IMG/VR virus record: IMGVR_UViG_3300034101_003783
Location: 40,018 to 104,017 of that record
Reading direction: 5' to 3' (one strand)
DNA: 64,000 bases
Source: a virus
In this document: positions 1 to 52,919 of the stretch, piece by piece
How positions within the stretch are numbered: the stretch's first letter is position 1
Layout: the number at the start of each line of letters is the position of its first letter
The notes under the pieces: model-generated
The model's database searches: none
What the model saw: only the letters and a program-made list of their open reading frames with translations
What the model was told of the DNA's origin: nothing
Translations under genes and position numbers: made by a program

Positions 1-3000
1 TGTGTTATATTATATTGAAAGTTAGGACCAACAATATTTCCTTGGAAGTCATTAAAAATATTATTATTATTAAAATTACTAGCAATTTGATTTCCTACTA
101 TGTGGTCGCCAATTTGATTATCGAAAATATTTGATCCCCATATATTACCAGACACAAAAGGTTGTCCACAAAAATTACCTATTGTATTGTGTTGGAAATC
201 ATTACCTATATTATTACCATAAAAAGAATCATTTGTATGATTAGATGAAAAGTTTGTTCCTACTTCATTAATCCAAGAAAAATACCCAATTCTGTTATCT
301 GTTGCAAAATCAGCAAAAGTATTTAAATTAAAAAAGTACCCAATTTCATTATCAGCAAAATAAGAACCTAAAGTATTTTCATAAAATATATCAGCAATAC
401 GATTAAAATTAAAACCATCTGTGATAGTATTTCTACTACATCCATAACCTATAACATTATTAAAATATCCTAAATCTGATGTATTAACTGTTACATTATA
501 TGTAAATGACTCACCTATCACATTTTCCGCAAAATTATTTCTTATTATGTTACCACCATCACCGTTATCTACCAAATCAAAACCAAAATAATTACCAATA
601 GTGTTTCCTGAAAATTTATCTAAGATAATATTTGATATTCCAGTTGTTTTATAACTACCAAAATTATTTCTAATAAAGTTATTTTGGAAATATGTACCTA
701 TTTGATTATTAATAAAAGTATTACCTATTAAATTATTTTGGGTGAAACCGCTAGCCAATGGCTCAATTGTGTATCCTGTTATAACTGCGGATGACCCACT
801 CAAATTATCTATTGTGTCGCCAACAGTTAAATCACCTATAATCAAATTTATTATCATTTCATCAACCCCATTATCACTAACTACTTCAGCACTTCCACCA
901 AAACCATCCTCAATTGTTTCACCAATATTAAATGTATTTATATCTGTTATGGTGATAGTCGCATCATTACCTCCTGTCGTTATTGTAATAATGTCACCAA
1001 CAGAATAGTATGTTCCGGCATTACTTATTGTTACACTAATTATAACACCAAAACCATCTGTTGTAATATCAACAGTAAGACCTACTCCTGTTCCTCCGTA
1101 TGTTGTTGGTACTCCTGTGGAATTTGAGTAACCTGATCCACCATTATTTAAGTTTATTGTTGTTGGAATTCCTTTTAATGTCGAATACCCTACTGTTGTT
1201 ACAACCCCTATTAAGTTTGCTCCTGTATCAGTTAAACCATCATTTCCAAAATAATTACCAATATGGTTATTTTGGAAAAATCCACCAATTATTTGTTTTT
1301 CGTTTGTACACCCAAAATAATCCCCAATATCATTTCCTTGAAAATTTGGCCCTACTGTGTTATTAACAAAATAATTTTTTATATTATTAAAAATAAAATT
1401 GTCATCTATAACATTTTTGTTAAAACCATTACCTATATTGTTATTATATGTATTATTTGATATTTCATTGTCTTGAAAAAAATCTCCTATTGTGTTACCT
1501 AAAGGTATAACCGAATCAGTCCCAAAGTTATTTCCAATAGTATTAGATTTAAAATTATTACCTATTCTATTATATGAAAAATCAGAACCATTATCACCTT
1601 TTTGTGCATATATTGAATTCCAGGTTGTACCTGAAGGACTTAATAGTGAATTAAAACTACCCTCAACGGCTGAATTATAAATACCACCCCCAATATTAGA
1701 TCTTGTTATTTCTAAAAATCCAGGTATAATAACATCTATTTCAGAACCAAAATCTGTTTTAGTAAATAATAATTTGTTACCTATAGGTGTTCCTACAGAA
1801 TCATATTCTTGTCTTTCGTATTGGAATCCTCCATTATTTATTGACCATTGTTTAAAAATAATTGAAAAGTATCTGTCTGGTATGGTATTAACTTTCATTA
1901 TTAGTTCTTTACCAACTATTAAATCATCTATCGAACCATCTAATGAATCATTAAAGGTTACATAATTTCTATTTGATATAGTATTAAAATCACTAAAACC
2001 AAAAAAATAATTATTAATAGGAGAGTTTCCAAAAAACCCATCATTAATGACGTTACTACTAAAATTATAACTAAATAAATTTTTAGTGGCGTTATTTCCA
2101 ATACTGTTGGAGACAAATCCATCACCTATCGTATTACTAGAAAACTTATTTTTTATTACATTTTCTTTAAACGAATCATCAATTATATTTGCAAAAAATC
2201 CCTGACCAATGTCATTCCCTTCAAAGACACCATAAATTATATTTTTTGTAAAATCATCATAGATATTATTATTATTAAAATTTGAAAATAGTCTAATGTT
2301 ATCAAAATTATCTTTTATTGTGTTAGATGAAAATACAAAATTATTTTTGTTAAAGGCATCCCCTATAATATTGTTAGTAAAATAATTACCTATTTGATTA
2401 TCTGAAAATTGGTTATATATGATATTATTAATAAAATTATTACCTATTTGATTATCTGAAAACGAGGTTGAGTTTTCACCTAAAAATCTATTCGATTCAA
2501 ATACATCACCAATAATATTATTGGAAAGATTACAATTTATTATATTATTATTAAAATAATAACCAAAAACACACTCATCGATATCATTTGTTGAGACGTT
2601 TTCAAAACAATAATCCCCCCAAACGTTATTTTCATTGTCGGTACCAAAAGTATTATTGTAACTATTGTTACCTATTTTATTATTATTGTATTCACCCTCT
2701 AAAAATAAATTATTTGATAGTAAAAAAATACCTGACCCAATATTTTGATAATTATTAGCATAATCACCAACGTAATTATTAATGGCATAACTATTAAGGA
2801 TTGCATCACCAAAAGTAGTTTTTTCGTAAAAATCATTAGTTTTAACATTTGTTTGTTTATAACTAAAATAACCATTAGTACCATTTGTTTCTTCTATACC
2901 TAAATAAAAAGATAAATTGTTACCTGTTGTTATGGTGTCACCAGTTATTGTCATAGAGGTATCATTACTTATATTAACAACCTCAAAAAAACTAGGATTT

Positions 3001-3653
3001 ATTCCATCAACATATATTACATCACCTAAACTTAAATCTGTAAATTTTGTATTTGTACCTGTAACAACACCACCTAATGCAATGTCAATTAAACCATTTA
3101 ATGGTAAATCAAATCTATAGGTATATAATTTGTATCTCTTAAATAATATGTTTTTATGGTCATAGTCTGTTCTATTATTAAACTCATCAATTCTTTCTGT
3201 AATTCTCCCAAAAGCAACACCGTTTGTTACTTCAGTTGTAGAAAAAGTCCAATCATATCTTATTCTGTCAAAGGGGTGTGATGATTGATAAGCAACTTCA
3301 CTTATTGTATTAATGCTTGTTGCTAAAACCATAATAGGTTCTACCGGTCCTTGTTTGTAATTTCCTGTTGTTATTGGGTTATTGTTTACATCAAAATTAG
3401 GTTGATCATAACAAGTTCTAAAATTTACAATGTTATAGAAGGCACCAGGTATTAAACTATTATTTGTAATTAAATTTACAAATGATGCGTATGTAATAGG
3501 GGTCGCACTTAAAACCCAACTTTGGAAATCTATTATTGGTGTGTGTTTTGTGGTTCCTGTTTGTACATCATAATTAACTATTGGCATAATGTCTGCCGAT
3601 GTGTACCCTGTATTTCCTACATATGGTAATTGTGATATTCTTTTATTTGCCAT
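1..3653 (-). CDS. Large tail fibre/spike-like protein with beta-helix repeats (partial, >1217 aa, runs off the window; absent from ORF track)
   Basis: ATG at 3653 gives MANKRISQLPYVGNTGYTSADIMPIVNY... The same frame is still open at the window edge (...NQIGDHIVGNQIASNFNNNNIFNDFQGNIVGPNFQYNIT). Many NxIGxxFxxN repeats. An internal in-frame stop would have produced a listed ORF. TATTTAT motif upstream. Confidence 0.85.
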   Translation of the reverse strand, partial: MANKRISQLPYVGNTGYTSADIMPIVNYDVQTGTTKHTPIIDFQSWVLSATPITYASFVNLITNNSLIPGAFYNIVNFRTCYDQPNFDVNNNPITTGNYKQGPVEPIMVLATSINTISEVAYQSSHPFDRIRYDWTFSTTEVTNGVAFGRITERIDEFNNRTDYDHKNILFKRYKLYTYRFDLPLNGLIDIALGGVVTGTNTKFTDLSLGDVIYVDGINPSFFEVVNISNDTSMTITGDTITTGNNLSFYLGIEETNGTNGYFSYKQTNVKTNDFYEKTTFGDAILNSYAINNYVGDYANNYQNIGSGIFLLSNNLFLEGEYNNNKIGNNSYNNTFGTDNENNVWGDYCFENVSTNDIDECVFGYYFNNNIINCNLSNNIIGDVFESNRFLGENSTSFSDNQIGNNFINNIIYNQFSDNQIGNYFTNNIIGDAFNKNNFVFSSNTIKDNFDNIRLFSNFNNNNIYDDFTKNIIYGVFEGNDIGQGFFANIIDDSFKENVIKNKFSSNTIGDGFVSNSIGNNATKNLFSYNFSSNVINDGFFGNSPINNYFFGFSDFNTISNRNYVTFNDSLDGSIDDLIVGKELIMKVNTIPDRYFSIIFKQWSINNGGFQYERQEYDSVGTPIGNKLLFTKTDFGSEIDVIIPGFLEITRSNIGGGIYNSAVEGSFNSLLSPSGTTWNSIYAQKGDNGSDFSYNRIGNNFKSNTIGNNFGTDSVIPLGNTIGDFFQDNEISNNTYNNNIGNGFNKNVIDDNFIFNNIKNYFVNNTVGPNFQGNDIGDYFGCTNEKQIIGGFFQNNHIGNYFGNDGLTDTGANLIGVVTTVGYSTLKGIPTTINLNNGGSGYSNSTGVPTTYGGTGVGLTVDITTDGFGVIISVTISNAGTYYSVGDIITITTGGNDATITITDINTFNIGETIEDGFGGSAEVVSDNGVDEMIINLIIGDLTVGDTIDNLSGSSAVITGYTIEPLASGFTQNNLIGNTFINNQIGTYFQNNFIRNNFGSYKTTGISNIILDKFSGNTIGNYFGFDLVDNGDGGNIIRNNFAENVIGESFTYNVTVNTSDLGYFNNVIGYGCSRNTITDGFNFNRIADIFYENTLGSYFADNEIGYFFNLNTFADFATDNRIGYFSWINEVGTNFSSNHTNDSFYGNNIGNDFQHNTIGNFCGQPFVSGNIWGSNIFDNQIGDHIVGNQIASNFNNNNIFNDFQGNIVGPNFQYNIT

Positions 3654-3671
3654 TTTTTTATTTTATAAATA

Positions 3672-4139
3672 TTAGATTATTAATAATGTTGTCGTTGTTG
3701 TAACAGGTAATGGTGGTTTAGGCCCTACACAACAAGGAAATTCAGAAACGTAACAACTATCGTATGGTAAGTCATCCGCAATAAAACTTTCTTGTATATT
3801 TATATATAATTTATCTCTTATTGGTAATATTAAAACCCCATCACTATTTCTTAAAAGGAATTGACCTTCATACCTACCAACCTTTCTTGTGTCTTTATTT
3901 GTAAATTGATAATAAATATAATATTCAGGATCTGAGTTTGGGTCTATCATTGTTTTAGAAACAAAACCGGCAGGTCTTGTTATTATTTTAGGTATACCAG
4001 TTTCAATGTCTACCATAGAAAAAAATATTGCAGAATTTTCTATCAATTCCATCATTCTATTATAATCACTACGACCATCTTTTACAACCTGCATTTTAAG
4101 TAAGGGTAGTGTGGCGTTTTTTTTAATAAAAAATTCCAT
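3672..4139 (-). CDS. BppU-like baseplate/fibre-associated protein with C-terminal poly-Thr tail
   Basis: FFIKKNATLPLL...YQF...DT...GRYEGQF resembles the BppU N-terminal fold. Ends PKPPLPVTTTTTLLII. Confidence 0.55.
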   Translation of the reverse strand: MEFFIKKNATLPLLKMQVVKDGRSDYNRMMELIENSAIFFSMVDIETGIPKIITRPAGFVSKTMIDPNSDPEYYIYYQFTNKDTRKVGRYEGQFLLRNSDGVLILPIRDKLYINIQESFIADDLPYDSCYVSEFPCCVGPKPPLPVTTTTTLLII

Positions 4140-4167
4140 TAATCTTTTTTATTAATAAATATAACAA

Positions 4168-5838
4168 CTAACATTCTTTTCTTAATTGGCCATCATAAAA
4201 ATCAAATCTATTATGTTCAGTTGGGGTTAGGAGTAAAACGGAAGGATTAATATTACCTTTTATTGTTTCTTGATAACAATGGCTCATTAATGTTTGTTCA
4301 TAGGGGTTTTGGAATCTTGTTTTTAAATAACATTTATAGTTTCCTTCTTTTGTCATTAGAATTGGCCAATTTGAAAGATATATTTCCCCGCTAGCATATG
4401 GTACTCCTTTGTGTGACTTTATGTGTTTAAACTCTAAATTAGGAGAGTTTGGGTCTAAACCTTGTTTTGGTAATGTTTTATTATTAACCCAATGTATTTC
4501 TCTGAAACTTTGTGGTACATTATACCATGACCATTGTTTATCATGACTACCAAAAAATTCCGTAAAATTTAATTTCAAAAAATCAAAATTTTCTTTTTTA
4601 ATAATTTCTTGTGTTATATTAAATAAATTTTTTACATAACGATTAAATCCATTTTTACATAAACTAGATTCTTTATTATAGAAAGCCATATCATCCTCAA
4701 AAAAATAATAAGTAGATAAATCATTTTGTTCATTAAAATGTTCCGCAATAAATTGTCTACCACCAGTAATACCAATATTATTTTTTTTGATGTGGCTAAA
4801 TCCGTACATATCACAAATCCTTAAGTATTCTTCTGTTGTTGTTAAATCTGTGGAATTATTTAATAAAAATTTTTTAGTTTTTTTTATAAACGAAGGATCA
4901 TAATCCATCATAGACTCAACCAAAACCTCAAACTGTTTTGGGGAATTAAATGTAATAACGTATAAACCAACACCATTATTATCTATAGTTTGATCTATTT
5001 TTTGTCTTTTATTTTCAAATAAAACAATGTTATTTTTTATGTCCTCAAAAAATTTATATAGTAGTCCGTTTGAATCAATTTTTACATGATCAATTAAATT
5101 AGAATATTTGTATGTTAGAATTGTAAATAAACTTTCTTCAGTTCCCATGTAACCTGATGACAAAGTATCGTACATTAATTGATAATACAAACCATTTAAT
5201 TGTGATATAGTTTCTCTTGTTCCACCAAAAAATCCACCCCTTGCCACCATATTTGGTTTTTTACCAATGTATTCAGACATAGGTCCTATTGAAAACCCAT
5301 GTATCTCTGTGTTTGTTTCGTATGGAAAACAAATAAATGTAAATTTATTAAAAGTATTGTTTATTTTTTCTAAAACTTTGTCATGGGTGAAATACCCAAC
5401 ATTCACCGTGTTTGTAATTCCCGCATCAACCCAATATAATTTTTCTGAATTAAATGGGTCAAGTAACATGGCATCATGTAGTAAAAACATTTTAGACATA
5501 ACAAGTGGGTTATACATATCTAACTTACCTTGTGTTGAATCTTTTAACCAACCTACTTGGTTATACCATTCTGGATTATTTCTTATATTTTGTATTTTAT
5601 TATAAAAGTCATTATTTTTAAACCAACTTAAATCTCTTAATATAAATCTTGTTTTGTTTTGATCTCTACCTTGAGATATAACAAATTTTTGAAGTTCAGG
5701 GTCCCCAAAAATTATCATGTTACAATCAATTTTTAATGTTTCTTTAAATCTTTCTAAATAGAAATCGAAATTTCTTGACCAACCTTCGGTCATATTACCT
5801 CTACCTATATCCCACAAACCTGTAACTAATGTTATCAT
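4168..5838 (-). CDS. HtrL/WlaTC-like glycosyltransferase fused to a second GT-A domain
   Basis: ITLVTGLWDIGR, SKMFLL...DPFNS...YWVDAG, GGFFGG and GTEESLF motifs. The C-terminal domain has YFFEDDM. Confidence 0.7.
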   Translation of the reverse strand: MITLVTGLWDIGRGNMTEGWSRNFDFYLERFKETLKIDCNMIIFGDPELQKFVISQGRDQNKTRFILRDLSWFKNNDFYNKIQNIRNNPEWYNQVGWLKDSTQGKLDMYNPLVMSKMFLLHDAMLLDPFNSEKLYWVDAGITNTVNVGYFTHDKVLEKINNTFNKFTFICFPYETNTEIHGFSIGPMSEYIGKKPNMVARGGFFGGTRETISQLNGLYYQLMYDTLSSGYMGTEESLFTILTYKYSNLIDHVKIDSNGLLYKFFEDIKNNIVLFENKRQKIDQTIDNNGVGLYVITFNSPKQFEVLVESMMDYDPSFIKKTKKFLLNNSTDLTTTEEYLRICDMYGFSHIKKNNIGITGGRQFIAEHFNEQNDLSTYYFFEDDMAFYNKESSLCKNGFNRYVKNLFNITQEIIKKENFDFLKLNFTEFFGSHDKQWSWYNVPQSFREIHWVNNKTLPKQGLDPNSPNLEFKHIKSHKGVPYASGEIYLSNWPILMTKEGNYKCYLKTRFQNPYEQTLMSHCYQETIKGNINPSVLLLTPTEHNRFDFYDGQLRKEC

Positions 5839-5846
5839 TTTGTTTT

Positions 5847-6527
5847 TTATTCTTTATTAAGTTTATCATATATAAAATTATGGTAGTTACCCTGTATCCA
5901 AACATCGTAATTAACAGGACCATTAGGTTGTAAAGTTGATACAAACCCAACGGCATGATTTATCATTAAAGGTATTGTAGTTAGAACTTTAAACCCCTTT
6001 GAAGATAATAAACATAGATGGTCATCTATTGCAATATAATCTTTTTTGTAATTAATATTATCAATTAAATGTTCATAAGCTCTTTTTTTTATTAGATAGG
6101 CCCATGAACCAGTACTTTTAGTTACCGAATATAGATTGTCCGTCACATATTTTAAATCTTCCTTTGGGTTACACCCAAGCAATACAACATCCCACTCAAC
6201 AGATTTTAAATCTAAAACAACTTTTTTTAATACTTCCGTAAATTCTTTTTTTTCTTTTGGGTAATAACAAATATCCTCAATATTAAAATCATCTTCCCCC
6301 ACAAAAATTATTTCTAAATTTTCTTTTTTTGCAATCTTAAATAATTCTAAATGACTTTTAGTACAAGAATAAACTTTTAAATCATCTGTTTGGGCAGGAA
6401 ACCTAAATAAGTTTTTTATCTCATATTTAGAAATCAAACTATTAACATGGATTAACCTATCTACACTACTATCAAGATTTATAAAAAAACCCTTGTTGGC
6501 TAAAACCTCATTTAAAATACTAAACAT
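5847..6527 (-). CDS. Glycosyltransferase family 25
   Basis: FFINLDSSVDR, CTKSH, GEDD, AYLI and AIDD motifs. Confidence 0.8.
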   Translation of the reverse strand: MFSILNEVLANKGFFINLDSSVDRLIHVNSLISKYEIKNLFRFPAQTDDLKVYSCTKSHLELFKIAKKENLEIIFVGEDDFNIEDICYYPKEKKEFTEVLKKVVLDLKSVEWDVVLLGCNPKEDLKYVTDNLYSVTKSTGSWAYLIKKRAYEHLIDNINYKKDYIAIDDHLCLLSSKGFKVLTTIPLMINHAVGFVSTLQPNGPVNYDVWIQGNYHNFIYDKLNKE

Positions 6528-6530
6528 TTT

Positions 6531-7778
6531 TTATAAATTACCCGTTATTCTATTACACCACCCTTTTGATTTAGAGTAAGGCCAAACAACCCAATACTTT
6601 GGTTTTTCTGTTGTATTAAATTCTCTCCATACTTTACAGTATCCATCAGGATCCTTTTTCATTCTAAGGATTTCATTAGTGTCCGCATCTTGTCTGTGAA
6701 GAGTCTCATCCTTACTATTATGAAATGCAACAACCCAAAACTCATAATCATTTTCTGGAACATCGTTAAACGAAACATCAATACAATGTTTAAAGATCAT
6801 TGAAAAACTATTAATCCATTCTTCCTCGTTCTTATATTCATATGGGTTTGGTGGATATTTCTTATCTATTGTATATTGTTGTACTGCTCTTTTAGAGAAT
6901 AAAATACCCGAATATTTTTCATAGTCTTTAATCGTTCTTTCAGACCCCATACCATAAATCCCAATATCCTCATTTAAAGTTTCACCGTCAACACCTAAAA
7001 GTTTTCTATTTTTAGAATGTGACGAATCATTTTTCTTATACCATTCTTTATCATCATCCCATTGTTTTGTTCTACCTTTTCTTGTGTATTCATGCCAAAT
7101 TACAACTTTGTGTGGGTGAAATAAATCATACCCATGGGTATAAGACCTTACCGCAATTGATATTTCTTCTCCATGAAAATAATATTCAGGGTCATGTTGT
7201 ACTTCTTTTGTAAATTCACCTAATGTAAAACAAAAATGAGCCGAGTAGAATCTTGCAGGAATAGGACCCGTTAAGTCTTTCCAATTAGGAATCACTTCGG
7301 GTAAAAAGAAAACACAACCTTCAGGTGTAAATCTATCAAACGCCATTCTCCATGGTTCAGTTACTCTACCTTGTGGGTCGTTATCAGGATCAAAAGACGA
7401 AACATATCCGGTTAATAAAGGTTTTTTATAACCCTTATTCTGTAAATCTGTAATCATACTAATAAGAGTAGAATCCCAACCCTTCTCAAACCTCATATGA
7501 GAATCTATTTGTAATGTGTACTCCTCATTGTCGTATTGTTGTTGTGTAAGATTTCTTGCCCAACAAACTCCTTTTGATTCTACGTACGGAATATTTAAAA
7601 TTTTAAATCTCTTATCATTATCAAACTCAGAAAGATCATCAAATTTATCTTCTTCATTAAATTGTCTTGCAATTGAAAAAACTAAGTTCTCAGGGTTTTT
7701 TGCTTTATCTAAACAATCTTTGATTGTTGGTACTAATTGTGGATCTCTGTAAGACGCAATCTGTATAAAAATTTTCAT
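6531..7778 (-). CDS. GT60-like UDP-GlcNAc:polypeptide N-acetylglucosaminyltransferase
   Basis: IFIQIASYRDP, SKGVCWAR, LQIDSHMRF..GWD, FHGEEI and SYTHGYDLFHP..VIWHEY are characteristic of the Gnt1/GT60 (GlcNAc) family. Confidence 0.8.
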   Translation of the reverse strand: MKIFIQIASYRDPQLVPTIKDCLDKAKNPENLVFSIARQFNEEDKFDDLSEFDNDKRFKILNIPYVESKGVCWARNLTQQQYDNEEYTLQIDSHMRFEKGWDSTLISMITDLQNKGYKKPLLTGYVSSFDPDNDPQGRVTEPWRMAFDRFTPEGCVFFLPEVIPNWKDLTGPIPARFYSAHFCFTLGEFTKEVQHDPEYYFHGEEISIAVRSYTHGYDLFHPHKVVIWHEYTRKGRTKQWDDDKEWYKKNDSSHSKNRKLLGVDGETLNEDIGIYGMGSERTIKDYEKYSGILFSKRAVQQYTIDKKYPPNPYEYKNEEEWINSFSMIFKHCIDVSFNDVPENDYEFWVVAFHNSKDETLHRQDADTNEILRMKKDPDGYCKVWREFNTTEKPKYWVVWPYSKSKGWCNRITGNL

Positions 7779-7826
7779 TTACTTTTTTTGTAAAAAATAA
7801 TAAACAAATAAAATAAAATAAATAAT

Positions 7827-8297
7827 TTAAAGACAAAGATTAGAAACACAAGGAGGTCCTGTTACAATATTAACGTTAACTAAATTTGTAACGTTTGAAG
7901 CACAAAAATATGTTGGCAATATGTGACCTATTGGTACTAATGTATTAATATTACCAAAACAATCTACAAAATCTAACGTTCCACCTTCTATCGTTAATGC
8001 GATTGCCTCTATACAGTTACATTCCGTAGGTAAAGGGCTTGGGGTTGGTGTGGGTGTTGGTGTAGGGCTTGGTGTAATACATGTATATAACTCAAACCTA
8101 TCACAACCTTCCCCATCTATTATTTTAACTAACAAAGATCCTGACGTATTTAATGGTGACGGAACAGTAAAAGTGTAAGACGGTGGACAAGAAGTAAGTC
8201 CCGTTATATAAACACATATTGTATTTGTTATGTCACAAACATAAACATCATAAGGAGATGTACCAGTAATAACGTTTATGGTTATTTCATTTGACAT
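7827..8297 (-). CDS. Cys-rich putative virion protein with Pro/Thr repeat
   Basis: [14 protein letters not shown] linker between Cys-rich beta domains. Confidence 0.65.
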   Translation of the reverse strand: MSNEITINVITGTSPYDVYVCDITNTICVYITGLTSCPPSYTFTVPSPLNTSGSLLVKIIDGEGCDRFELYTCITPSPTPTPTPTPSPLPTECNCIEAIALTIEGGTLDFVDCFGNINTLVPIGHILPTYFCASNVTNLVNVNIVTGPPCVSNLCL

Positions 8298-8627
8298 TTA
8301 ATTATTATTGATTATTTGATTGTAAACTAATAAAATCCCCTCACCATAAGAAGGATACTGATTCATTTCATTTTTAGTTTTTATAATTTCCACAGATTTT
8401 ATTTCTCCGTCTAATAAATAAAATTTAACCGTTTCCCAATCACTAATATCTTCAGGATTTTTCACATAAGTTAAATCATTTATCATACAAATAAAAAAAT
8501 CATTTAATAACGTAATTAAATTATTTTGATCATCTAAAAAAAATGTTTCGTTCGGGACTGAGTAAGTGTTGATATTTTTATCAACATTATACAACTCCAT
8601 AAAAAAGTATTTTTGATTGTTTGCCAT
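8298..8627 (-). CDS. Hypothetical protein
   Basis: 109-aa ORF tightly packed in the minus-strand operon. Confidence 0.6.
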   Translation of the reverse strand: MANNQKYFFMELYNVDKNINTYSVPNETFFLDDQNNLITLLNDFFICMINDLTYVKNPEDISDWETVKFYLLDGEIKSVEIIKTKNEMNQYPSYGEGILLVYNQIINNN

Positions 8628-8631
8628 AATT

Positions 8632-9609
8632 TTAATTTTTTATTATTATTATATATAATTCTCCTTGTCTTGAGTTGCCCGAAACCCCAGATACCGCCGC
8701 CCCTTGAGCCGCAGTACTTGTATTAACGTACCTAGCCCTAATATCAATTGTATGACTTCCTGCACTTAAATTTAATATAGAACTTAATGACCATGTTGTA
8801 TTAGTAAAGGCCACATTTATAGTGTTTGGGTTCATTGTGTTTATGTGATTAAATCCACCATCTGTTTGTAAAGATCCATCAACAAAAATACCAATGTAAG
8901 ATGTAAATGTATAATTAGACCCATTGGTGTTACCTATACCTCCTATTGAAGACACATAAACAGAACAATTACTAGGGACGGTAAAGGTTTGGGATAATCC
9001 TGGAACAACAAAATATGCTGTAGTTGCATTTGATAAAGGAAGAGATGCGTTACCATATAGTTTATATGTTGTCTGACCTAACCCAGCAACTAATTTACCT
9101 GATGAATCAAAAGATGCTGCTTGATTTGGTGTTCCTGTTGTATTACCTACATTTACTGTAGAAGAACTAAAAGTTGTTGCAATTAGTCCTTGTGCGGACG
9201 TATTACCGGTTATATTTAAATTTCCATTAACGGTTAAACCTGTTACAGTATTAATTGTTTGAGTTAAATCGGGTTGACCATTATTTTGTTTTATTGTGAA
9301 AACATTATCACTATATGTAAAACCTGTAACATATGTGTCAGGATCAATTGGTAAATTTTGATATGTTGTTGCCGATATGATATTTGTATTTATACCGTTT
9401 GTAAAAGAAGTAGATCCGGTAACTGTTCCTCCGCTTAATGGTAAAAAATAGTTATAAGAATCTATTATGACATAATCTTTAACATCATCTATCTTTGTGT
9501 TACTTGTGGTTCCTGTCGGATTTAAATAGTTAACAAAAACTAATAAATCAATTGGTGTATAGCCGGTATTTCCGATATAAGGAAACTGTGATATTTTAAC
9601 ATCAGACAT
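8632..9609 (-). CDS. Tail fibre-like protein
   Basis: The N-terminus KISQFPYIGNTGYT is shared with the 3653 protein. LPLSGGTVTG fibre motif, G/T/N/S-rich body, C-terminal beta domain (LSAGSHTIDIR). Confidence 0.7.
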   Translation of the reverse strand: MSDVKISQFPYIGNTGYTPIDLLVFVNYLNPTGTTSNTKIDDVKDYVIIDSYNYFLPLSGGTVTGSTSFTNGINTNIISATTYQNLPIDPDTYVTGFTYSDNVFTIKQNNGQPDLTQTINTVTGLTVNGNLNITGNTSAQGLIATTFSSSTVNVGNTTGTPNQAASFDSSGKLVAGLGQTTYKLYGNASLPLSNATTAYFVVPGLSQTFTVPSNCSVYVSSIGGIGNTNGSNYTFTSYIGIFVDGSLQTDGGFNHINTMNPNTINVAFTNTTWSLSSILNLSAGSHTIDIRARYVNTSTAAQGAAVSGVSGNSRQGELYIIIIKN

Positions 9610-9634
9610 TTTTTATTTTTTTATTATAAATAGT

Positions 9635-10303
9635 TTATTCTGCAATTATGTACTGACTTATTTCTGATAGAATTTTATTCCCATCTTCACTAACAATATA
9701 AAATACGAATGCCGTTACTGTTGGTGTTGGTGTACTAGTAACTGTTGGTGTTGGGGTATTAGTTCCTGTCGGAGTAGGTTTTGGTGTATTAGTTCCTGTC
9801 GGAGTAGGTGTTGGTGTACATCCACAAGGGTTTGTACAAGTTTGAGTTGGTTTAGGTGGTTTAACTGTTGGTGTTGGTGTTGGGTTATTACAACCACAAG
9901 GGTTTGTACAAGTCTCACTTGGTGTTGGTGTTATTGTTGGAGTAACGCTTATTGTTGGAGTAACTGTAGGTGTTGGTGTTGGTACTTTACATGGATCCAA
10001 AGTTGTTGTAGGAGTATTAGTTGGTGTTGGGGTTGGTGTTTGAGTTCTTGTTGGAGTATTAGTTGGTGTTGGGGTTGGTGTAGATCTAGGGACATTAATT
10101 ATGTTCACACATTTACTACCATTTACTAAAATTGTATATGTTCCGTAAATTTCTCTTGGTGGGTTTAATTCGTTAGGAAAAAATACAAAAGGTAATATAA
10201 CTTGACCTAAATTTATTGTTATTAAATCATTATCCGGTTTAAAAAGTACTGTTACACTTTCTCCACTAAAATTTATACTTTCTATTGTAATACTTAAACT
10301 CAT
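9635..10303 (-). CDS. Mucin-like Pro/Thr-rich putative virion protein
   Basis: About 120 residues of (TP)n interrupted by two TCTNPCGC motifs. Confidence 0.75.
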
Positions 10304-12486
10304 ATAATAACTGTAGTTGTTGTAGTAATATTATCATTAATTTGATATGTTAAATCATTTGTTGGACAAAATTTAGTATCACAAACAGGGCAGTCAGGAT
10401 CAAACAAATCAAATTTATCTTTTAAAATAATAAAATTATGTTTTATTTCATCAGAAGATAAAGGATCAATATACATTCTAAATTGAGATATACCACCTTC
10501 AAAAGTACCCCCAAAATTTTGTTCTAATAAAATATTTGTGTTTAACCCAGATAAACTAGTTCCACTTAAAATATTATTTGGTAGACATTCAGGATCTTGT
10601 ATGTAATTTGATGTTAATGCGGAACAAGAAGAAAATGTTAGGTTCTCATGTAATCCTTGTGTACCACCTCCCCAAGAAATATTAAATGGTACACCTATTT
10701 GTTTTTCTTTATCGGTAAATAAACCTCTAGGTATTACCTCTTCAAAGTCCTCAATGGTATATATCTTTTTCCCATTAACATAAATTTTTAATCTACCCAA
10801 CCTGTATTTTTTTTCGTCTAACCATATATCATTTAAATTAACTAACTCAATTAATTCTCCATCTTTATCTAAATGAGTTAGTGGAGGTTTTATAAGATCA
10901 ACAGAATTATTAGATAAAGAATCTAAATATTCAAATTTAGTTATATCCCCTAATCCACCATAAAATTTTAAATCACAGAAATCAAACCATGAATATCTTT
11001 CCCATACAACATTAACTAAAAACCAATGTTCTTCATCTAAGAAGGCTGGATTGACAACCTCACAATATGGGTATATTGGGGGTGAGCAATACTCATCAAT
11101 AGTATACCCTGTTACATATGTTTGTCCTGTTGTGCAAGTTCCTGTTGTTTCACATCCACCAGTAAACCTTAAAACTTTAACCCCAATTTGTGGATTTTTT
11201 GGATTTCCACATAATTTAAAAGATATATTATTAGACATAACATCAAACAATGGGTCTGTCTCACAGGTGTATTCCACAGACGTAAAACCTGTATATTCAC
11301 AACTTGTACATTCATCACATTTATAACATTTTGTACAACTTGGGGTACATATAGGTGTTTGCACATTACAATTAGGTGTTGGGCTTGGGGTTGGTGTTGG
11401 GGTTGGAGTTGGTATTACCACAGTCTTACAATTATGTATCTGACATTCCCACCCACAAGACTCACAAGGAGATTCGTTACAACCACAACCACAAGTTACT
11501 GAAACCTCAAGGTTACCATTACATAACCTACAACCATAATTTACATGTGGATCATGTTGATTATTTTTAGATCTAGGAGGGTAAACATATATACACCTAC
11601 TATTAGTTACAGTCTTATCACAACAAGCACATGTTGACGGACAACCACTTAGAGATTCTGTAACTCTAGTATATCCTGTCAGACAATTTGGGTGTCCGTC
11701 AGCATGGTGGTAAAATTTATTTTCCGCTCTTGTACCAAAATAAAAAAAGGTGTTTTTATTTTTTGGGTACAATAAATTTAATGTGGTTTCATTTGGTAAT
11801 GGGGAGTATTCATCAACAAGTCTTGGTTTTAATAACATCTCAACGGACCAACCTTTAGATGTTCTTTCTGGTAAAACTTCATAATCAAAACCAAATAACT
11901 TATAAAAACCTTGATAAAATCCACCATATAGTTCATGGTATTTACCTATAATAGGATCATTTTTACTTACAATTTCGTATAAAGTATTTTTAGATATTCC
12001 TGAAAATCTATTATTATTTTCTGTATATCCCGTTACTTGGAATAACTTAAATCTTCTATCAAAATGTAATCTATCAAATTTTAAAAAATCATCATATAAA
12101 CCTTTTGTATAATTTAAAGTCTCTCCGGTCATTTTTTCTACCAACCCATTGTCTACCCCCGTTAATCCAACATCACATAGTGTTGTTGAGGAAAAACAAG
12201 TTAAATCTTCATTATTTGGGTTGTAATAATTTTGTGAAACAAAAACATTGTTTGGATTAAAATTTTTATATGTTAATGTTAATCCTGTTTGTGAGGTTAA
12301 AGGGTTGTTAATATCAATATTAATTGGTAATTTATTACCATAAGTTTCTGCGATTAAGTATGGTGAAAATACAACTTCTTCTTTATAGTTTCTTTCATCA
12401 GAAGCTAAAGACATATCCATAGATTCAGAAACAAGATTAATTTTGTATTTCTGATACACATATTGATTAATATTTTGTTCCGCCAT
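10300..12486 (-). CDS. LamG/ConA-like fold virion protein with Cys-rich and TP-repeat insertion and poly-Thr C-terminus
   Basis: LKIYVNG...[24 protein letters not shown] is a LamG-like ending. Cys clusters, [13 protein letters not shown], ends [10 protein letters not shown]. Confidence 0.65.
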
Positions 12487-12539
12487 TCTTTTTATTTAAT
12501 AAATACACCAAATCAAAGTATTTATATAAAAAACTATTT

Positions 12540-15371: not shown

Positions 15372-16589
15372 ATGGAAAAAATTAATGTATTAGTATTACC
15401 TTCAGATAAATCTGGTGTTGGTAAGTATAGGTCCGTAGATCCTCATGTTAAACTACAAAACATGTATCCAGATGAGTTTCATGTTGATATAGATTATCAA
15501 CCAAACGTAAATGATATAAACTACTTTAAGAAATATCAAATTATCCATTTTCATAGAAGTATTGGTCAAGATTATGAAAAATCAGTAGAACTTATTAATA
15601 AGCTAAAAAGTGAAGGTATTATTGTTATTGGTGATATTGATGATTATTGGTTACCAACAAAAGAGCATCCTATACATCAATTAATCGTACAAAATAAAAT
15701 GCACGAAAAAATTGTATCTAATTTAAAGGCGGCATCTTATGTAACAACTACAACTGAAATTTTTGCAAATGAAATTAGAAAATTTAATAAAAATGTTATA
15801 GTGTTACCAAACGCAATAGACCCGCAAGATCCTCAATATAATGAACCAACATTACCTTCAGAAAAAATTAGAGTTGGTTGGTTGGGAGGTTCGTCTCACT
15901 TACATGATTTAAAATTATTAGAGGGTATGGTTAGTAAGTTATCTAATCTACAAGAAAAATTACAATTTTATGTTTGTGGGTTTGACACTAGAGGTGTTGT
16001 TACGGAAATAAATAAACAAACAGGTGAAAAAAAACAAAGACCTATTAAACCTGAAGAAACTGTTTGGGTTAAATACGAACAAATTTTTACTAACAACTAC
16101 CAGATAGTATCACCAAAATACAAAGAATTTTTAGATAAATTTAATGATGAAGAATATTTTGGTAGCACAGAAAAAGAAAATTACATTAGGGTTTGGACAA
16201 GACCGGTTACGTCTTACGCAAAGAACTACTCGAAGTTTGATATATCTTTATCCCCAATTAAAAACCATATTTTTAATAGAATGAAATCACAATTAAAAGT
16301 AATTGAGGCTGGTTTTTATAAAAAAGCGATAATTGCATCTAATGTAGGTCCGTATACTATTGATTTAAAACACGCACTTAAAAACGGTCAATTTACTGAT
16401 GGAAACGCTCTTTTAGTTAATGAAAATAATAACCACAGTGATTGGAGTAAAAATATAAAAAAATTGGTCGAGAACCCTAATATGATTACAGACCTTGGGG
16501 AAAGATTATATGAATCAGTAAAAGATAAATATGATTTAAATAACGTCACAAAAGAAAGATCTTCATTTTACAAATCACTAATTAAATAA
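15372..16589 (+). CDS. GT-B (GT4-like) glycosyltransferase
   Basis: GVGKYRS..PH, DIDDYW, VLPNAID, VGWLGGSSH..DL, FNRMKSQLKVIEAG and IIASNVGPY motifs. Confidence 0.85.
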   Translation: MEKINVLVLPSDKSGVGKYRSVDPHVKLQNMYPDEFHVDIDYQPNVNDINYFKKYQIIHFHRSIGQDYEKSVELINKLKSEGIIVIGDIDDYWLPTKEHPIHQLIVQNKMHEKIVSNLKAASYVTTTTEIFANEIRKFNKNVIVLPNAIDPQDPQYNEPTLPSEKIRVGWLGGSSHLHDLKLLEGMVSKLSNLQEKLQFYVCGFDTRGVVTEINKQTGEKKQRPIKPEETVWVKYEQIFTNNYQIVSPKYKEFLDKFNDEEYFGSTEKENYIRVWTRPVTSYAKNYSKFDISLSPIKNHIFNRMKSQLKVIEAGFYKKAIIASNVGPYTIDLKHALKNGQFTDGNALLVNENNNHSDWSKNIKKLVENPNMITDLGERLYESVKDKYDLNNVTKERSSFYKSLIK

Positions 16590-16594
16590 AAAAA

Positions 16595-17326
16595 ATGATT
16601 AATATACCAATTACAAAAATTTTATTCTTGGATATTGAAACTGTTGGTGGATGTCCTGATTATGAATCTTGTCAAAAGTTTAGTCCTGAAATTGCAGACC
16701 AATATGTAAAATATTATGATTGGTTTAAAAAAAGATTTCCTGAAGATCATATTGAGGTACCAAAAACAAAAATAGAATCGGATAAAAGAATGAATGAGGT
16801 CTTTAAAAAAAGAGCGGCTCTTGTACCAGAATTTGCAAAAATTGTTTGTGTTTCAGTGGCCTTTGTTTTAGAAAATGGTGAAACTAAAAAACAATCTTTT
16901 TACGGTGATGACGAGAAAAAATTATTAAAGGAAGTTAGGACTCTTCTTGACCGTTGTGAAAAACTTGGGTTTTTTCTTTGTGGTCACAATCTAAAAAATT
17001 TTGATATTCCAATGTTAGCAAAAAGAATGATCATAAATGGAATTCGTCCCTCAAAAATTCTTCCATCTTATGATACAAAACCTTGGGAAATAAAGGCAAT
17101 TGACACAAAAGAAATTTGGCAATATGGAGCGTATACGTCAATAGGATCTTTAGATTTATTATGTTCTTGTTTAAATATCCCAACCCCAAAAGATGGTGAA
17201 GTTACAGGATCTTCTGTTCACAAATCATACTGGGAAGACCAAAAAATAAAAGAAATTGCGGAATATTGTGAGAAGGATGTTGAAGTTTTAATTGACGCAA
17301 TAATGAAATTAAAAAGTTTAGAATAA
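16595..17326 (+). CDS. DEDD 3'-5' exonuclease (PolB-exo-like)
   Basis: LFLDIETV, GHNLKNFDIP and YCEKDV motifs. Confidence 0.85.
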   Translation: MINIPITKILFLDIETVGGCPDYESCQKFSPEIADQYVKYYDWFKKRFPEDHIEVPKTKIESDKRMNEVFKKRAALVPEFAKIVCVSVAFVLENGETKKQSFYGDDEKKLLKEVRTLLDRCEKLGFFLCGHNLKNFDIPMLAKRMIINGIRPSKILPSYDTKPWEIKAIDTKEIWQYGAYTSIGSLDLLCSCLNIPTPKDGEVTGSSVHKSYWEDQKIKEIAEYCEKDVEVLIDAIMKLKSLE

Positions 17327-17931
17327 TGAATAAAAATGATTTAAATAAAATTTTATCTCAAACAAAAGATCTTGAGAAATTATTTGAGGGTACTGAATTA
17401 AACGATGATGTTGAGTTAGATGCTCTTATGAATGAGTATGGTATAGATTTAAATGAATTAGAAAAAGTTTTTACTGATGATATACCAAAAGTTAAAATGA
17501 ATATTAAACTTATCCATAAAGATGCTATATTACCTAAATTTGCTTATGAAACGGACTCCGGTGTTGATTTATATTCCGTTGATGAACACATAATACCACC
17601 TATGGGAAGGTCATTAATTTCAACAGGAATTGTAATTGATGTTCCTGAAAACCATGAAATTCAGATTAGATCAAAAAGTGGATTGGCATTAAACCAAGGT
17701 TTATTTGTTTTAAATTCACCTGGAACTGTAGATCAAGGGTATACGGGCGAAATAAAAGTAATACTATTTAACACAAACAATGAAGAGTTTAAAATTACAA
17801 AAGGAATGAAAGTCGCTCAAGCGGTTTTGTGTCCTGTTGTTTGTGGTAAATGGGTAGATATTGTAAAAGTTTCTGAAGTAGAAAATAAAGATAGGTCTAA
17901 CAATGGGTTTGGAAGTACAGGATTAATTTAA
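17326..17931 (+). CDS. dut: Trimeric dUTPase with acidic N-terminal extension
   Basis: SGVDL, RSKSGLA, GTVDQGYTGEI, AQAV and RSNNGFGSTG correspond to the five dUTPase motifs. Confidence 0.93.
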   Translation: MNKNDLNKILSQTKDLEKLFEGTELNDDVELDALMNEYGIDLNELEKVFTDDIPKVKMNIKLIHKDAILPKFAYETDSGVDLYSVDEHIIPPMGRSLISTGIVIDVPENHEIQIRSKSGLALNQGLFVLNSPGTVDQGYTGEIKVILFNTNNEEFKITKGMKVAQAVLCPVVCGKWVDIVKVSEVENKDRSNNGFGSTGLI

Positions 17932-17937
17932 ATTTAA

Positions 17938-20141: not shown

Positions 20142-20143
20142 AT

Positions 20144-22250: not shown

Positions 22251-22261
22251 AAATAAAAAAA

Positions 22262-22813: not shown

Positions 22814-22818
22814 TAAAT

Positions 22819-24944: not shown

Positions 24945-24947
24945 ATT

Positions 24948-25652: not shown

Positions 25653-25656
25653 TATT

Positions 25657-26484: not shown

Positions 26485-26487
26485 TAT

Positions 26488-47538: not shown

Positions 47539-47559
47539 GTTTAAATTTTATTATAAATA

Positions 47560-49021: not shown

Positions 49022-49041
49022 AATTTTTTTTATTATAAATA

Positions 49042-52879: not shown

Positions 52880-52919
52880 AAAGTATTTTATTATAAATAC
52901 ATTCTCAATTTTTATTTAT

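What the first reader, a model, noticed from the sequence alone, without database searches (positions are those of the whole stretch)
3672..12486. Candidate phage-encoded mucin-type O-glycosylation system: polypeptide GlcNAc transferase operon embedded among TP-repeat virion genes
Seen: three glycosyltransferases (GT60-like 6531-7778, GT25 5847-6527, HtrL-like+GT-A 4168-5838) sit inside one co-oriented run of fibre/baseplate genes. No terminator is apparent and a TATTTAT late motif lies at 7818-7824. Three nearby upstream genes encode mucin-like (Thr-Pro)n tracts (7827, 9635, 10300). Known: GT60 enzymes (Dictyostelium Gnt1/Gnt2 type, related to GT27 ppGalNAc-Ts) add alpha-GlcNAc to hydroxyproline or Thr/Ser of polypeptides, and some actinobacteriophages O-glycosylate virion proteins with their own GTs. 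Inference: GT60 primes Thr in the TP tracts and GT25/HtrL extend the glycan, producing stiff bottle-brush linkers on the virion for protease resistance, adhesion or receptor reach. Enzyme and putative substrates would be encoded side by side.
Basis: partly seen in the sequence, partly recalled or inferred. Interest (0 to 1): 0.88.

Follow-up and report, generated by a model that had tools for sequence, protein, structure and literature searches.

The report
Phage mucin-type O-glycosylation cassette candidate
An uncultured ~300-kb freshwater phage carries an enzyme built like the animal enzymes that start mucin glycosylation, next to tail-appendage genes with Thr-Pro linkers; the same enzyme and Thr-Pro pairing recurs in many phages and bacteria, so sugar-coated linkers are likely but unproven.

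Summary
Three glycosyltransferase genes (GT60/PF11397, GT25, HtrL_YibB plus a GT2-like half) lie in one minus-strand run. That run also holds the only three (Thr-Pro)n genes of the 104-kb contig.

The contig is about one third of a low-GC jumbo myovirus. The GT60 protein has the invariant DxH motif. Its high-confidence model matches polypeptide GalNAc-transferases best (Z 19-22, against 18 or less for other GT-A enzymes).

Order is conserved in related phages: TP gene, GT60, variable tailoring genes, HtrL-GT, then a possible baseplate-anchor gene with a poly-Thr/TP linker. Of 20 GT60-bearing large phage records, 17 hold TPTPTP-coding DNA; none of five GT60-less jumbo phages do. In bacteria from several phyla, dense TP-repeat genes sit within 5 kb of GT60. 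In four of five genomes checked, that was the genome's largest or only TP cluster.

XacN1, a cultured phage with the cassette, has Schiff-stained virion glycoproteins.

Exceptions exist: three GT60-bearing fragments have no TP tract, and many TP-bearing phages lack GT60. The sugar, the sites and the extension steps remain inferred. This is a new variant of phage virion glycosylation. The same finding was noted twice more by first readers of this genome.

The parts
3..3653 (-). Large fibre-like protein. The full gene is 1266 aa and runs 147 nt past the window's start. It has the N-terminal KISQLPYVGNTGYT module, NNxIGNxF-type repeats, and TATTTATA 18 nt upstream.
   Evidence: Its N-terminal module is shared with 8632-9609, whose relatives carry PF13884. 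No Pfam or PHROG hit of its own.
3672..4139 (-). p155: a conserved ~140-aa beta-sandwich N-domain ending ..EFPCC, followed here only by PKPPLPVTTTTTLLII. It always lies directly downstream of HtrL-GT. In relatives the N-domain is followed by poly-Thr/TP linkers and variable distal domains (125-784 aa in total).
   Evidence: AF2 model, pLDDT 73. Best folds are phage baseplate chains: 80alpha 6v8i Z 8.3, NF5 9m8o Z 8.2, TP901-1 BppU 4v96 Z 7.9. BFVD gives BppU-N, minor tail and tail-fibre proteins. The match is middling.
4168..5838 (-). Two-domain glycosyltransferase: an N-terminal HtrL_YibB domain (aa 2-252) and a C-terminal half that resembles GT2 clusters. It is the conserved partner of GT60 in phages and bacteria.
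   Evidence: Found at 38-41% identity in XacN1/Xoo-sp13, at 49-86% in related loci, and beside GT60 in 25 of 80 bacterial loci.
5847..6527 (-). GT25-family glycosyltransferase. It occupies the variable middle slot of the cassette. Relatives carry other GT25s, RMNT_CmcI or FkbM methyltransferases, or unknown genes there; XacN1 has a carbamoyltransferase.
6531..7778 (-). GT60-type (PF11397) soluble glycosyltransferase with an invariant D92-S-H94 motif, plus a C-terminal beta-rich domain (aa ~326-415). Proposed initiating polypeptide O-glycosyltransferase.
   Evidence: pLDDT 96.5; top 29 entries are all GT27 ppGalNAc-Ts, Z 19.3-22.5. No transmembrane segment.
7817..7824 (-). TATTTATT, a variant of the recurrent upstream element TATTTATA, 39-46 nt before the GT60 start.
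7827..8297 (-). TP156: a conserved ~73-aa Cys-containing N-domain, then [14 protein letters not shown], then a Cys-rich C-part. The family sits directly upstream of GT60 in relatives, with variable C-parts (72-1526 aa).
   Evidence: the gene at position -1 carries a TP tract in 49% of 46 distinct loci.
8298..8627 (-). 109-aa ORF of unknown function. No relatives were found in the related loci.
8632..9609 (-). Fibre-like protein (325 aa, Thr 15%) with the shared N-terminal module and TATTTATA 23 nt upstream.
   Evidence: 485 relatives; those sharing only the N-terminal ~22% carry PF13884 Peptidase_S74.
9635..10303 (-). TP222: a ~72-aa N-domain, then a ~125-aa mucin-like region (49 Thr, 34 Pro, only 4 Ser) interrupted by CTNPCGC motifs. 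It is the best candidate acceptor.
   Evidence: mixed codons, so not simple slippage.
10300..12486 (-). TP728: the first gene of the run. Halves that resemble ConA/Laminin_G_3 are split by a Cys-rich insert holding [13 protein letters not shown]. It ends ..TTTTTVII. Relatives continue with a ~220-aa distal domain that is absent here.
   Evidence: (Laminin_G_3 clusters, score 0.93-0.94; a lead)
15372..27114 (+). Neighbouring glycan-biosynthesis region (context; possible donor supply and extension). It holds a GT4-like gene, three or four GT2 genes, DegT aminotransferase, WbqC, methyltransferases, a GNAT-methyltransferase fusion, BKACE, a hexapeptide acyltransferase and a GH130-like gene, interleaved with an exonuclease and dUTPase.

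Best explanation
The block is the protein-glycosylation core of a jumbo myovirus.

Proposed mechanism:
1. In the infected cell's cytoplasm, the soluble GT60-type enzyme (6531-7778) puts a first sugar on Thr (less often Ser) of the Thr-Pro and poly-Thr linkers. By analogy this is an alpha-linked HexNAc from a UDP-sugar, with the metal held by D92-x-H94.
2. Those linkers join conserved N-terminal anchor domains to variable distal domains in the phage's modular tail appendages: TP156, TP222, TP728, the p155 family, and similar proteins elsewhere in the genome.
3. The variable middle genes (GT25 here; methyltransferases or a carbamoyltransferase in relatives) and the conserved HtrL-GT then extend and tailor the glycan. 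The adjacent glycan region may supply donors.

Shown here: the enzyme family, motif and fold; cassette synteny; the TP tracts and their position at module junctions; and the statistical coupling of GT60 with TP-repeat genes in phages and bacteria.

Shown in the literature: virion glycoproteins in XacN1, and Thr-O-GlcNAc formation by the GT60 enzyme TcOGNT1.

Inferred: the acceptor, the sugar, the order of steps, late expression, and the benefit (extended, protease-resistant or shielded linkers).
For: Enzyme:
- PF11397 at 247 bits.
- D92/H94 invariant across 62 homologues down to 26% identity. DxH in place of DxD is the mark of GT27 and GT60 (PMC7185993).
- AF2 pLDDT 96.5. The top 29 PDB entries are all polypeptide GalNAc-transferases, Z 19.3-22.5 over 263-288 residues; other GT-A enzymes reach 18.0 or less (Foldseek).
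- No transmembrane segment.
- The characterised GT60 TcOGNT1 makes GlcNAc-alpha-1-O-Thr on mucin-like proteins (PMC9472816).

Coupling in phages:
- All three TP genes of the 104-kb contig lie within 4.7 kb upstream of GT60.
- In 46 distinct related loci, the gene at position -1 has a TP tract in 49% and at -2 in 32%; other positions show 0-13%.
- The linkage persists at 42-61% GT60 identity.
- 17 of 20 GT60-bearing large records hold TPTPTP-coding DNA. None of 5 GT60-less jumbo phages do, over 2.1 Mb. Four of those five are in XacN1's own monophyletic group.
- 9 of 42 contigs chosen only for a (TP)5 tract carry PF11397, against 4 of 50,697 cultured-phage records.

Coupling in bacteria:
- A dense TP/SP-repeat ORF lies within 5 kb of GT60 in 17 of 65 loci. 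These include a recurrent ~170-290-aa protein with a twin-arginine-like N-terminus and TP repeats, in four or more phyla.
- TP ORFs fill 6.6% of slots adjacent to GT60 against 1.8% of other slots, p 0.007.
- In four of five whole genomes checked, the largest or only TP cluster of a 3.9-6 Mb genome lies within 3 kb of GT60.

Virion context:
- p155 fold is a middling match to BppU-N-type baseplate domains.
- Fibre N-module linked to PF13884.
- The TATTTAT(A/T) element is shared with structural genes.
- At least two Schiff-stained virion bands in XacN1, whose ORF334 is the 45%-identical homologue.
Against: - There is no direct evidence of any glycan on any TP peptide.
- Three GT60-bearing contigs (181, 131 and 123 kb; 39-74% complete) hold no TPTPTP. 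One subclade has the cassette among small non-structural genes with no S/T/P-rich neighbour.
- TP tracts also lie 8-70 kb from the cassette.
- 33 of 42 TP-bearing contigs lack GT60, including 5 of 6 near-complete genomes. TP linkers therefore do not need this enzyme.
- The phage counts are not phylogenetically independent.
- The five bacterial genomes were chosen because they had a TP neighbour.
- The virion role of TP156, TP222 and TP728 rests on context only. They have no PHROG, Pfam or cultured-phage relatives.
- The p155 fold match is middling (Z about 8).
- The founding GT60 enzyme Gnt1 uses hydroxyproline, not Thr.
Confidence: 0.6

Rival explanations
1. The cassette glycosylates phage proteins, but not at TP or poly-Thr tracts. 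Targets could be capsid, sheath or other Ser/Thr sites. The TP tracts would then be plain flexible linkers that happen to be common in the same lineages.
For: GT60-bearing records without TPTPTP, and a subclade with no TP neighbours. Most TP-bearing viral contigs lack GT60. The same distal domain is swapped between different anchors at the poly-Thr/TP junction, which a plain linker role explains. The XacN1 glycoprotein bands were not identified.
Against: It does not explain the position-specific enrichment of TP genes at -1 and -2 of GT60. It does not explain the independent adjacency in bacteria, where the genome's largest TP cluster sits beside GT60.
Confidence: 0.15
2. The GTs build or remodel a non-protein glycan, such as host LPS, capsule or another surface polysaccharide, for superinfection exclusion or host takeover. 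This has been proposed for jumbo-phage GT clusters.
For: GT25 and HtrL_YibB are named for LPS-core genes. The neighbouring 12-kb region looks like an O-antigen or amino-sugar pathway. PMC7824862 proposes this role for polymorphic GT clusters of jumbo cyanophages. The middle genes of the cassette vary as O-antigen loci do.
Against: The GT60 fold stands 4-5 Z units closer to polypeptide GalNAc-transferases than to polysaccharide GT-A enzymes. Characterised GT60 enzymes all act on polypeptides. None of the three GTs has a membrane segment. XacN1 virions carry glycoproteins. The TP coupling is left unexplained.
Confidence: 0.12
3. The acceptor is hydroxyproline in the TP tracts, as in Skp1 and Gnt1, after hydroxylation by a host or unrecognised phage prolyl hydroxylase.
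For: A 2461-aa relative with four GT60 stretches is named by its source as a prolyl 4-hydroxylase fusion.
Against: No PF13640 prolyl hydroxylase was found in the own contig, in three 91-100% complete relatives or in XacN1. Other 2OG-oxygenase families were not searched.
Confidence: 0.05
4. The GTs glycosylate phage DNA at hydroxymethylated bases.
For: The cassette lies next to DNA polymerase here and in XacN1. A thymidylate-synthase-family gene exists in relatives.
Against: That gene lies more than 100 kb from the cassette. No Tet/JBP match was found, but that search also rang in none of its control genomes, so absence is not shown. The survey of DNA-modifying phage GTs mentions none of these families. 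The fold is polypeptide-GT-like.
Confidence: 0.03

Closest known systems
CAZy GT60 polypeptide alpha-GlcNAc-transferases (T. cruzi TcOGNT1; Dictyostelium Gnt1/Gnt2)
   Same: PF11397 match far above the cut-off, the DxH motif, and a proposed mucin-like Thr-rich acceptor.
   Different: The phage protein is soluble and carries an extra ~90-aa C-terminal beta domain. It works, if at all, in a bacterial cytoplasm on virion proteins. Donor and acceptor are untested. No solved GT60 structure was found by sequence.
GT27 polypeptide GalNAc-transferases (animal mucin-type O-glycosylation)
   Same: Closest solved fold: Z up to 22.5, rmsd 3.5 A over ~277 residues, with the same DxH metal motif.
   Different: Only 11-14% identity. 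No ricin-type lectin domain and no membrane anchor. It is not a sequence-level family member.
Mycobacteriophage virion glycosylation (Freeman et al. 2023, as cited in PMC12619734)
   Same: Phage-encoded GTs are proposed to decorate virion proteins with O-glycans.
   Different: There the glycans were measured on C-terminal extensions of the capsid and tail-tube subunits. Here a different GT family is involved, the acceptors would be internal TP/poly-Thr linkers of tail appendages, and nothing has been measured.
Xanthomonas jumbo phage XacN1 / Xoo-sp13 cassette (ORF334-ORF330)
   Same: GT60 (45-47% identity) and HtrL-GT (38-41%) in the same order beside the DNA polymerase. There are 26-29 TPTPTP tracts per genome, including the giant neighbour ORF325. 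Glycoprotein bands are seen in virions.
   Different: The middle genes are a carbamoyltransferase and two unknowns. There are no p155, TP156 or TP728 homologues. GC is 40-49% against 28%.
Giant-virus autonomous glycosylation (chlorovirus PBCV-1 Vp54; named in PMC5852040)
   Same: A virus-encoded set of cytoplasmic GTs and sugar-tailoring enzymes acting on structural proteins.
   Different: That is a eukaryotic virus with N-linked atypical glycans on the capsid protein and other GT families.

Membership tests
GT60 / Pfam PF11397 (GlcNAc) | Sequence match to the family model above the curated cut-off | tested here: met
   247.5 bits against 21, E 3.6e-73; confirmed on the genome copy.
GT60 / Pfam PF11397 (GlcNAc) | DxH metal-binding motif in place of DxD (shared with GT27) | tested here: met
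   D92-S-H94 is invariant in alignments of 37 and 62 sequences. The motif is described in PMC7185993.
GT60 / Pfam PF11397 (GlcNAc) | GT-A fold closest to GT27 | tested here: met
   Z 19.3-22.5 for 29 ppGalNAc-T entries; the next families reach 18.0 or less.
GT60 / Pfam PF11397 (GlcNAc) | UDP-GlcNAc donor, retaining alpha-transfer | not testable with these tools
   Needs an enzyme assay.
GT60 / Pfam PF11397 (GlcNAc) | Polypeptide acceptor (Thr/Ser or hydroxyproline) | not testable with these tools
   Only indirect support: TP-repeat genes are enriched beside GT60 in phages and bacteria.
GT25 (PF01755) | Match above the curated cut-off | tested here: met
   28.4 bits against 24, partial (profile positions 69-197 of 199); phrog_2835 glucosyltransferase, E 9e-8. 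Marginal.
HtrL/YibB (PF09612; TIGR02192 equivalog) | Pfam domain match | tested here: met
   63 bits against 24.1, aa 2-252.
HtrL/YibB (PF09612; TIGR02192 equivalog) | Equivalog-level score (same function as E. coli YibB) | tested here: not met
   66 bits against a cut-off of 265. The protein is also twice as long, with a second GT2-like half.
Phage virion O-glycosylation system | Glycan detected on virion proteins | not testable with these tools
   Only by proxy: Schiff-stained bands in XacN1 virions (PMC5852040 Fig. S4).
Phage virion O-glycosylation system | Phage GT genes linked to genes of the proposed acceptor proteins | tested here: met
   Exceptions.
BppU N-terminal baseplate-anchor domain (for 3672-4139) | Fold match to solved BppU-N-type domains | tested here: inconclusive
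   The top three of 48,161 chains are phage baseplate proteins, but Z is only 7.9-8.3, just above generic Ig-like folds at 6.5-7.5. Pfam gave no hit.
T4-type late promoter | TATAAATA on the coding strand upstream of the gene | tested here: not met
   The element is TATTTAT(A/T) on the coding strand. TATAAATA precedes only 4 of 98 genes.

The most novel reading that the evidence does not exclude
GT60 plus HtrL-GT is a widespread prokaryotic cytoplasmic 'mucin-type' O-glycosylation module whose dedicated acceptors are (Thr/Ser)-Pro repeat tracts. In bacteria of several phyla the acceptors would be small proteins with a twin-arginine-like signal and TP repeats, glycosylated before export. Jumbo phages, probably of Bacteroidota and Xanthomonadaceae hosts, would have captured the module to coat the TP/poly-Thr linkers of their exchangeable tail-appendage modules, diversifying the glycan through a variable tailoring slot.
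Probability: 0.4. Interest if true: 0.88.

Novelty: new variant of a known kind. Interest (0 to 1): 0.77.

Why it matters
Glycosylated phage virions are known from very few cases, and neither the enzyme logic nor the acceptor code is understood.

Here the enzyme family that starts mucin-type glycosylation in protists, structurally akin to the animal ppGalNAc-transferases, is tied by comparative genomics to a simple and recognisable acceptor motif. The tie holds in hundreds of uncultured jumbo phages, in four cultured phages, and in bacteria of several phyla.

If it holds, virion glycosylation could be predicted from sequence. It would explain why TP linkers abound in some phage lineages and not in their relatives. 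It would point to a bacterial O-glycosylation pathway that I found no description of. It would also give a compact enzyme-plus-tag pair for glyco-engineering.

The idea is directly testable with existing cultured phages and with deposited proteomics data.

Tried and rejected
- Megablast of the block against cultured phages: no match.
- tblastn of TP728, p155 and fib325 against 50,697 phage records: no match.
- Pfam, PHROGs and NCBIfam gave nothing for p155, TP156, p109, fib325, TP222, TP728 or fib1266, apart from two weak PHROG hits.
- Sequence and profile searches of the PDB with GT60: no hit. The comparison therefore rests on a predicted fold.
- Prolyl hydroxylase PF13640: not found in the own contig, three near-complete relatives or XacN1.
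- Tet_JBP: not found, but the control genomes also gave nothing, so absence is not shown.
- The thymidylate-synthase family is present but far from the cassette, which is uninformative.
- The T4 late-promoter reading of the motif is rejected.
Contexts of marine and giant multi-GT60 relatives (P0155, P0151, P0002) could not be fetched that way; I used the search for related loci instead.
- Membership in the published 'moraphage' lineage (PMC12619734) could not be tested. That paper lists SPIRE contig names only.
- Identity of the XacN1 glycoprotein bands: not given in the paper or its supplement.
TP156, TP222 and TP728 were therefore not folded.

Full report
**What the window is.** The window is bases 40018-104017 of a 104-kb IMG/VR virus contig that CheckV rates 33% complete. 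GC is about 28%. Upstream of the window the contig encodes a baseplate wedge and hub, a tail tube and an 1113-aa tail sheath. It also encodes ribonucleotide reductase, DnaB, a UvsX-like recombinase, SSB and a family-B DNA polymerase. Relatives reach 272-304 kb at 91-100% completeness. The window is therefore part of an uncultured jumbo myovirus of about 300 kb.

**Check of the observation.**
- 6531-7778(-) matches PF11397 'GlcNAc' (the GT60 family) at 247 bits, and phrog_24687 at E 1e-166.
- 5847-6527(-) matches GT25 just above the cut-off.
- 4168-5838(-) has an N-terminal HtrL_YibB domain. Its C-terminal half resembles GT2-bearing clusters only by language-model features.

Among the 98 ORFs of the contig, (TP)n tracts of three or more units occur only in 7827-8297, 9635-10303 and 10300-12486. 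A C-terminal TTTTT-plus-aliphatic tail ends 3672-4139, 10300-12486 and a 56-aa ORF at 50925-51095. The tracts use mixed codons, and Thr outnumbers Ser 49 to 4 in the long tract. Only one weak terminator-like site lies in the block.

The TATTTAT motif at 7824-7818 is real. TATTTATA on the coding strand lies within 70 nt upstream of 17 of 98 genes, mostly structural ones, against 4 for T4's TATAAATA. GT60, p155 and TP728 carry the TATTTATT variant. Co-expression with structural genes is thus plausible, but 'late' is an inference.

**The GT60 enzyme.**
- D92-S-H94 is invariant in homologues down to 26% identity. [quoted passage not shown]
- The AlphaFold model is very confident, pLDDT 96.5.
- Its 29 best PDB entries are all polypeptide GalNAc-transferases, Z 19.3-22.5 and rmsd about 3.5 A over about 275 residues. 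Other GT-A enzymes begin at Z 18.0.
- No solved structure matches by sequence.
- The protein has no membrane segment.
- The characterised GT60 TcOGNT1 makes GlcNAc-alpha-1-O-Thr on mucin-like proteins (PMC9472816).

**The cassette and its neighbours in related phages.** The GT60 protein has 349 relatives in IMG/VR. I analysed the best 80 loci (72-92% identity). They share the order: TP156-family gene, GT60, 0-4 variable genes, HtrL-GT, p155-family gene, and further on the DNA polymerase. The variable slot holds GT25s, rhamnosyl-O-methyltransferase-like and FkbM methyltransferases, and unknown genes.

Four cultured jumbo phages carry GT60 and HtrL-GT at 38-47% identity: XacN1, Xoo-sp13, and Stenotrophomonas phages CM1 and RAS14. 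In XacN1 and Xoo-sp13, whose loci I examined, the two genes are in the same order, again beside the DNA polymerase. A carbamoyltransferase sits between them.

On the other strand of the window, 15372-27114 holds a GT4-like gene, several GT2s, DegT, WbqC, methyltransferases, a GNAT, BKACE and a hexapeptide acyltransferase. The three GTs are therefore the edge of a ~25-kb glycan region.

**The flanking proteins are modular.**
- p155 has a conserved ~140-aa N-domain (mean column identity 70%). Its model is a beta-sandwich. Its best matches among 48,161 chains are the baseplate proteins of phages 80alpha, NF5 and TP901-1 (BppU), at a middling Z of about 8.
- In relatives this domain is followed by poly-Thr or TP tracts and distal domains of very different size.
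- The TP156 and TP222 families likewise have ~72-aa N-domains, then TP tracts, then variable C-parts.
- One ~220-aa distal domain (59-67% identity) is found behind the junction on TP728-type, p155-type and other N-parts. It is missing from both window genes, which end right after TTTTT.
- fib325 shares its N-terminal module with proteins that carry the tail-fibre chaperone domain PF13884.

The TP/poly-Thr tracts are therefore inter-module linkers of exchangeable appendage proteins. That they are virion parts is likely, but it rests on context.

**Coupling of GT60 and TP tracts in phages.**
- In 46 loci with distinct GT60 sequences, the gene at position -1 carries a TP tract in 49% and at -2 in 32%. 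Other positions show 0-13%.
- The linkage persists at 42-61% GT60 identity.
- Genome-wide, TPTPTP-coding DNA occurs 15-43 times in five near-complete relatives, and 26-29 times in XacN1 and Xoo-sp13. The reversed-pattern control gives 0.
- It occurs zero times in RaK2, GAP32, Atu_ph07, SCTP-2 and a 484-kb uncultured phage, none of which has PF11397. The first four belong to XacN1's own monophyletic group.
- With a second sample, 17 of 20 GT60-bearing large records have the pattern.
- In the other direction, 9 of 42 viral contigs chosen only for a (TP)5 tract carry PF11397. The base rate in cultured phages is 4 of 50,697.

**Exceptions.**
- Three contigs of 123-181 kb have GT60 but no TPTPTP.
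- One subclade has the cassette among small genes with no S/T/P-rich neighbour.
- TP tracts also lie far from the cassette.
- 33 of the 42 TP-bearing contigs lack GT60.

**Independent evidence from bacteria.** Full-length homologues (36-71% identity) occur in at least 576 genome stretches of many phyla. The closest are in Saprospiraceae and other Bacteroidota.
- HtrL-GT lies beside GT60 in 25 of 80 loci.
- Dense TP/SP-repeat ORFs lie within 5 kb of GT60 in 17 of 65 loci. They include a recurrent ~170-290-aa protein with a twin-arginine-like N-terminus followed by TP repeats, in Gammaproteobacteria, Deltaproteobacteria, Acidobacteriota, Actinobacteriota and Bacteroidota.
- TP ORFs are enriched in the slots adjacent to GT60, 6.6% against 1.8%, p 0.007.
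- In four of five whole genomes checked, the largest or only TP-coding cluster of a 3.9-6 Mb genome lies within 3 kb of GT60. Those five genomes were picked for having a TP neighbour, so the fair figure is 17 of 65 loci, against my rough estimate of a few percent expected by chance.

**Experimental anchor.** The XacN1 authors saw at least two Schiff-stained glycoprotein bands in virions. They suggested that the phage GTs, including ORF334 (the GT60 homologue), make them (PMC5852040). The bands were not identified.

**Rival readings.**
- A host-polysaccharide role, as proposed for jumbo cyanophage GT clusters (PMC7824862). It fits the LPS-type names and the O-antigen-like neighbour region. It does not fit the fold, the soluble enzymes, the TP coupling or the XacN1 glycoproteins.
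- DNA glycosylation. There is no supporting context.
- A hydroxyproline acceptor. A prolyl-hydroxylase fusion among distant relatives suggests it, but no PF13640 enzyme was found in the phages.
- Glycosylation of other sites, with TP tracts as mere linkers. This remains the main alternative.

**Verdict.** It is a new variant of phage virion glycosylation, possibly one face of a broader prokaryotic GT60/TP-repeat system.

Noticed in passing
L341:4819-5457, L350:9280-9831, L337:9608-10243, L318:4591-5466, L323:2503-3015, L346:4880-5476, L369:5587-6696, L296:6504-7649: In bacteria of four or more phyla, a ~170-380-aa protein with a twin-arginine-signal-like N-terminus (RRRLLQALG..) followed by dense TP or SP repeats lies next to GT60, often with HtrL-GT. 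This is a possible dedicated substrate, glycosylated in the cytoplasm before export.
   Followed up: partly
L008:6119-8974, L014:1233-4124, L068:17159-18262, L050:13156-14220, L043:7251-8120; window 3672-4139 and 10300-12486: The same ~220-aa distal domain (59-67% identity) is attached behind the poly-Thr/TP junction to three different N-terminal parts. The window's TP728 and p155 both stop right after TTTTT and lack it. This is module shuffling or deletion at the linker.
   Followed up: yes
window 15372-27114 (+): A glycan-biosynthesis region (GT4-like, GT2s, DegT, WbqC, methyltransferases, GNAT, BKACE, hexapeptide acyltransferase, GH130-like) interleaved with an exonuclease and dUTPase. DegT appears only as a 216-aa N-terminal piece (20144-20794), followed by a 252-aa ORF with no Pfam hit. 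The gene may be split.
   Followed up: partly
whole contig; e.g. window 3664-3671, 9625-9632, 12519-12526, 38080-38087, 47552-47559, 49034-49041, 52892-52899: TATTTATA on the coding strand lies 11-51 nt upstream of 17 of 98 genes, mostly structural. It is the reverse complement of the T4 late promoter word, which itself precedes only 4 genes.
   Followed up: partly
records behind L238 (181 kb), L244 (131 kb), L227 (123 kb): GT60-bearing jumbo-phage fragments with no TPTPTP-coding DNA at all. Their cassette sits among small non-structural genes. L227 has two GT60 paralogues in tandem.
   Followed up: partly
P0002 (2461 aa), P0003, P0004, P0010 and others: Giant proteins with two to four GT60 stretches. 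One is named by its source as a prolyl 4-hydroxylase/peroxiredoxin fusion, reminiscent of the Skp1 hydroxylation-glycosylation pathway. Their contexts could not be fetched.
   Followed up: no
L004:4532-7873 (-), tail sheath, 12-15 kb before the window's start: The 1113-aa sheath has TTTT and TTTTTTT runs at aa 291 and 316, in a long N-terminal region ahead of the conserved sheath C-terminal part. This could be another acceptor.
   Followed up: no
window 50925-51095 (-): A 56-aa ORF ending ITTTTTTKLV, with TATTTATA 11 nt upstream. It is the third protein with the C-terminal poly-Thr tail.
   Followed up: no
L296 (Saprospiraceae MAG, 230-kb contig with UvrB nearby), plus L295, L297, L298, L317: The closest cellular GT60 and HtrL-GT homologues (62-71% and 56% identity) are in Bacteroidota (Saprospiraceae, Bacteroidia, Chitinophagia). 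This hints at the host phylum. It fits the Bacteroidota hosts predicted for the freshwater 'moraphage' jumbo lineage (PMC12619734), whose relation to this phage is untested.
   Followed up: no
AP018399.1 124048-133104 (L221): XacN1 ORF232-237 is a run of six hypothetical proteins of ~400-750 aa, each holding a TPTPTP-coding tract. ORF384 (a 2823-aa 'glycerophosphodiester phosphodiesterase') and ORF180 hold tracts too.
   Followed up: partly
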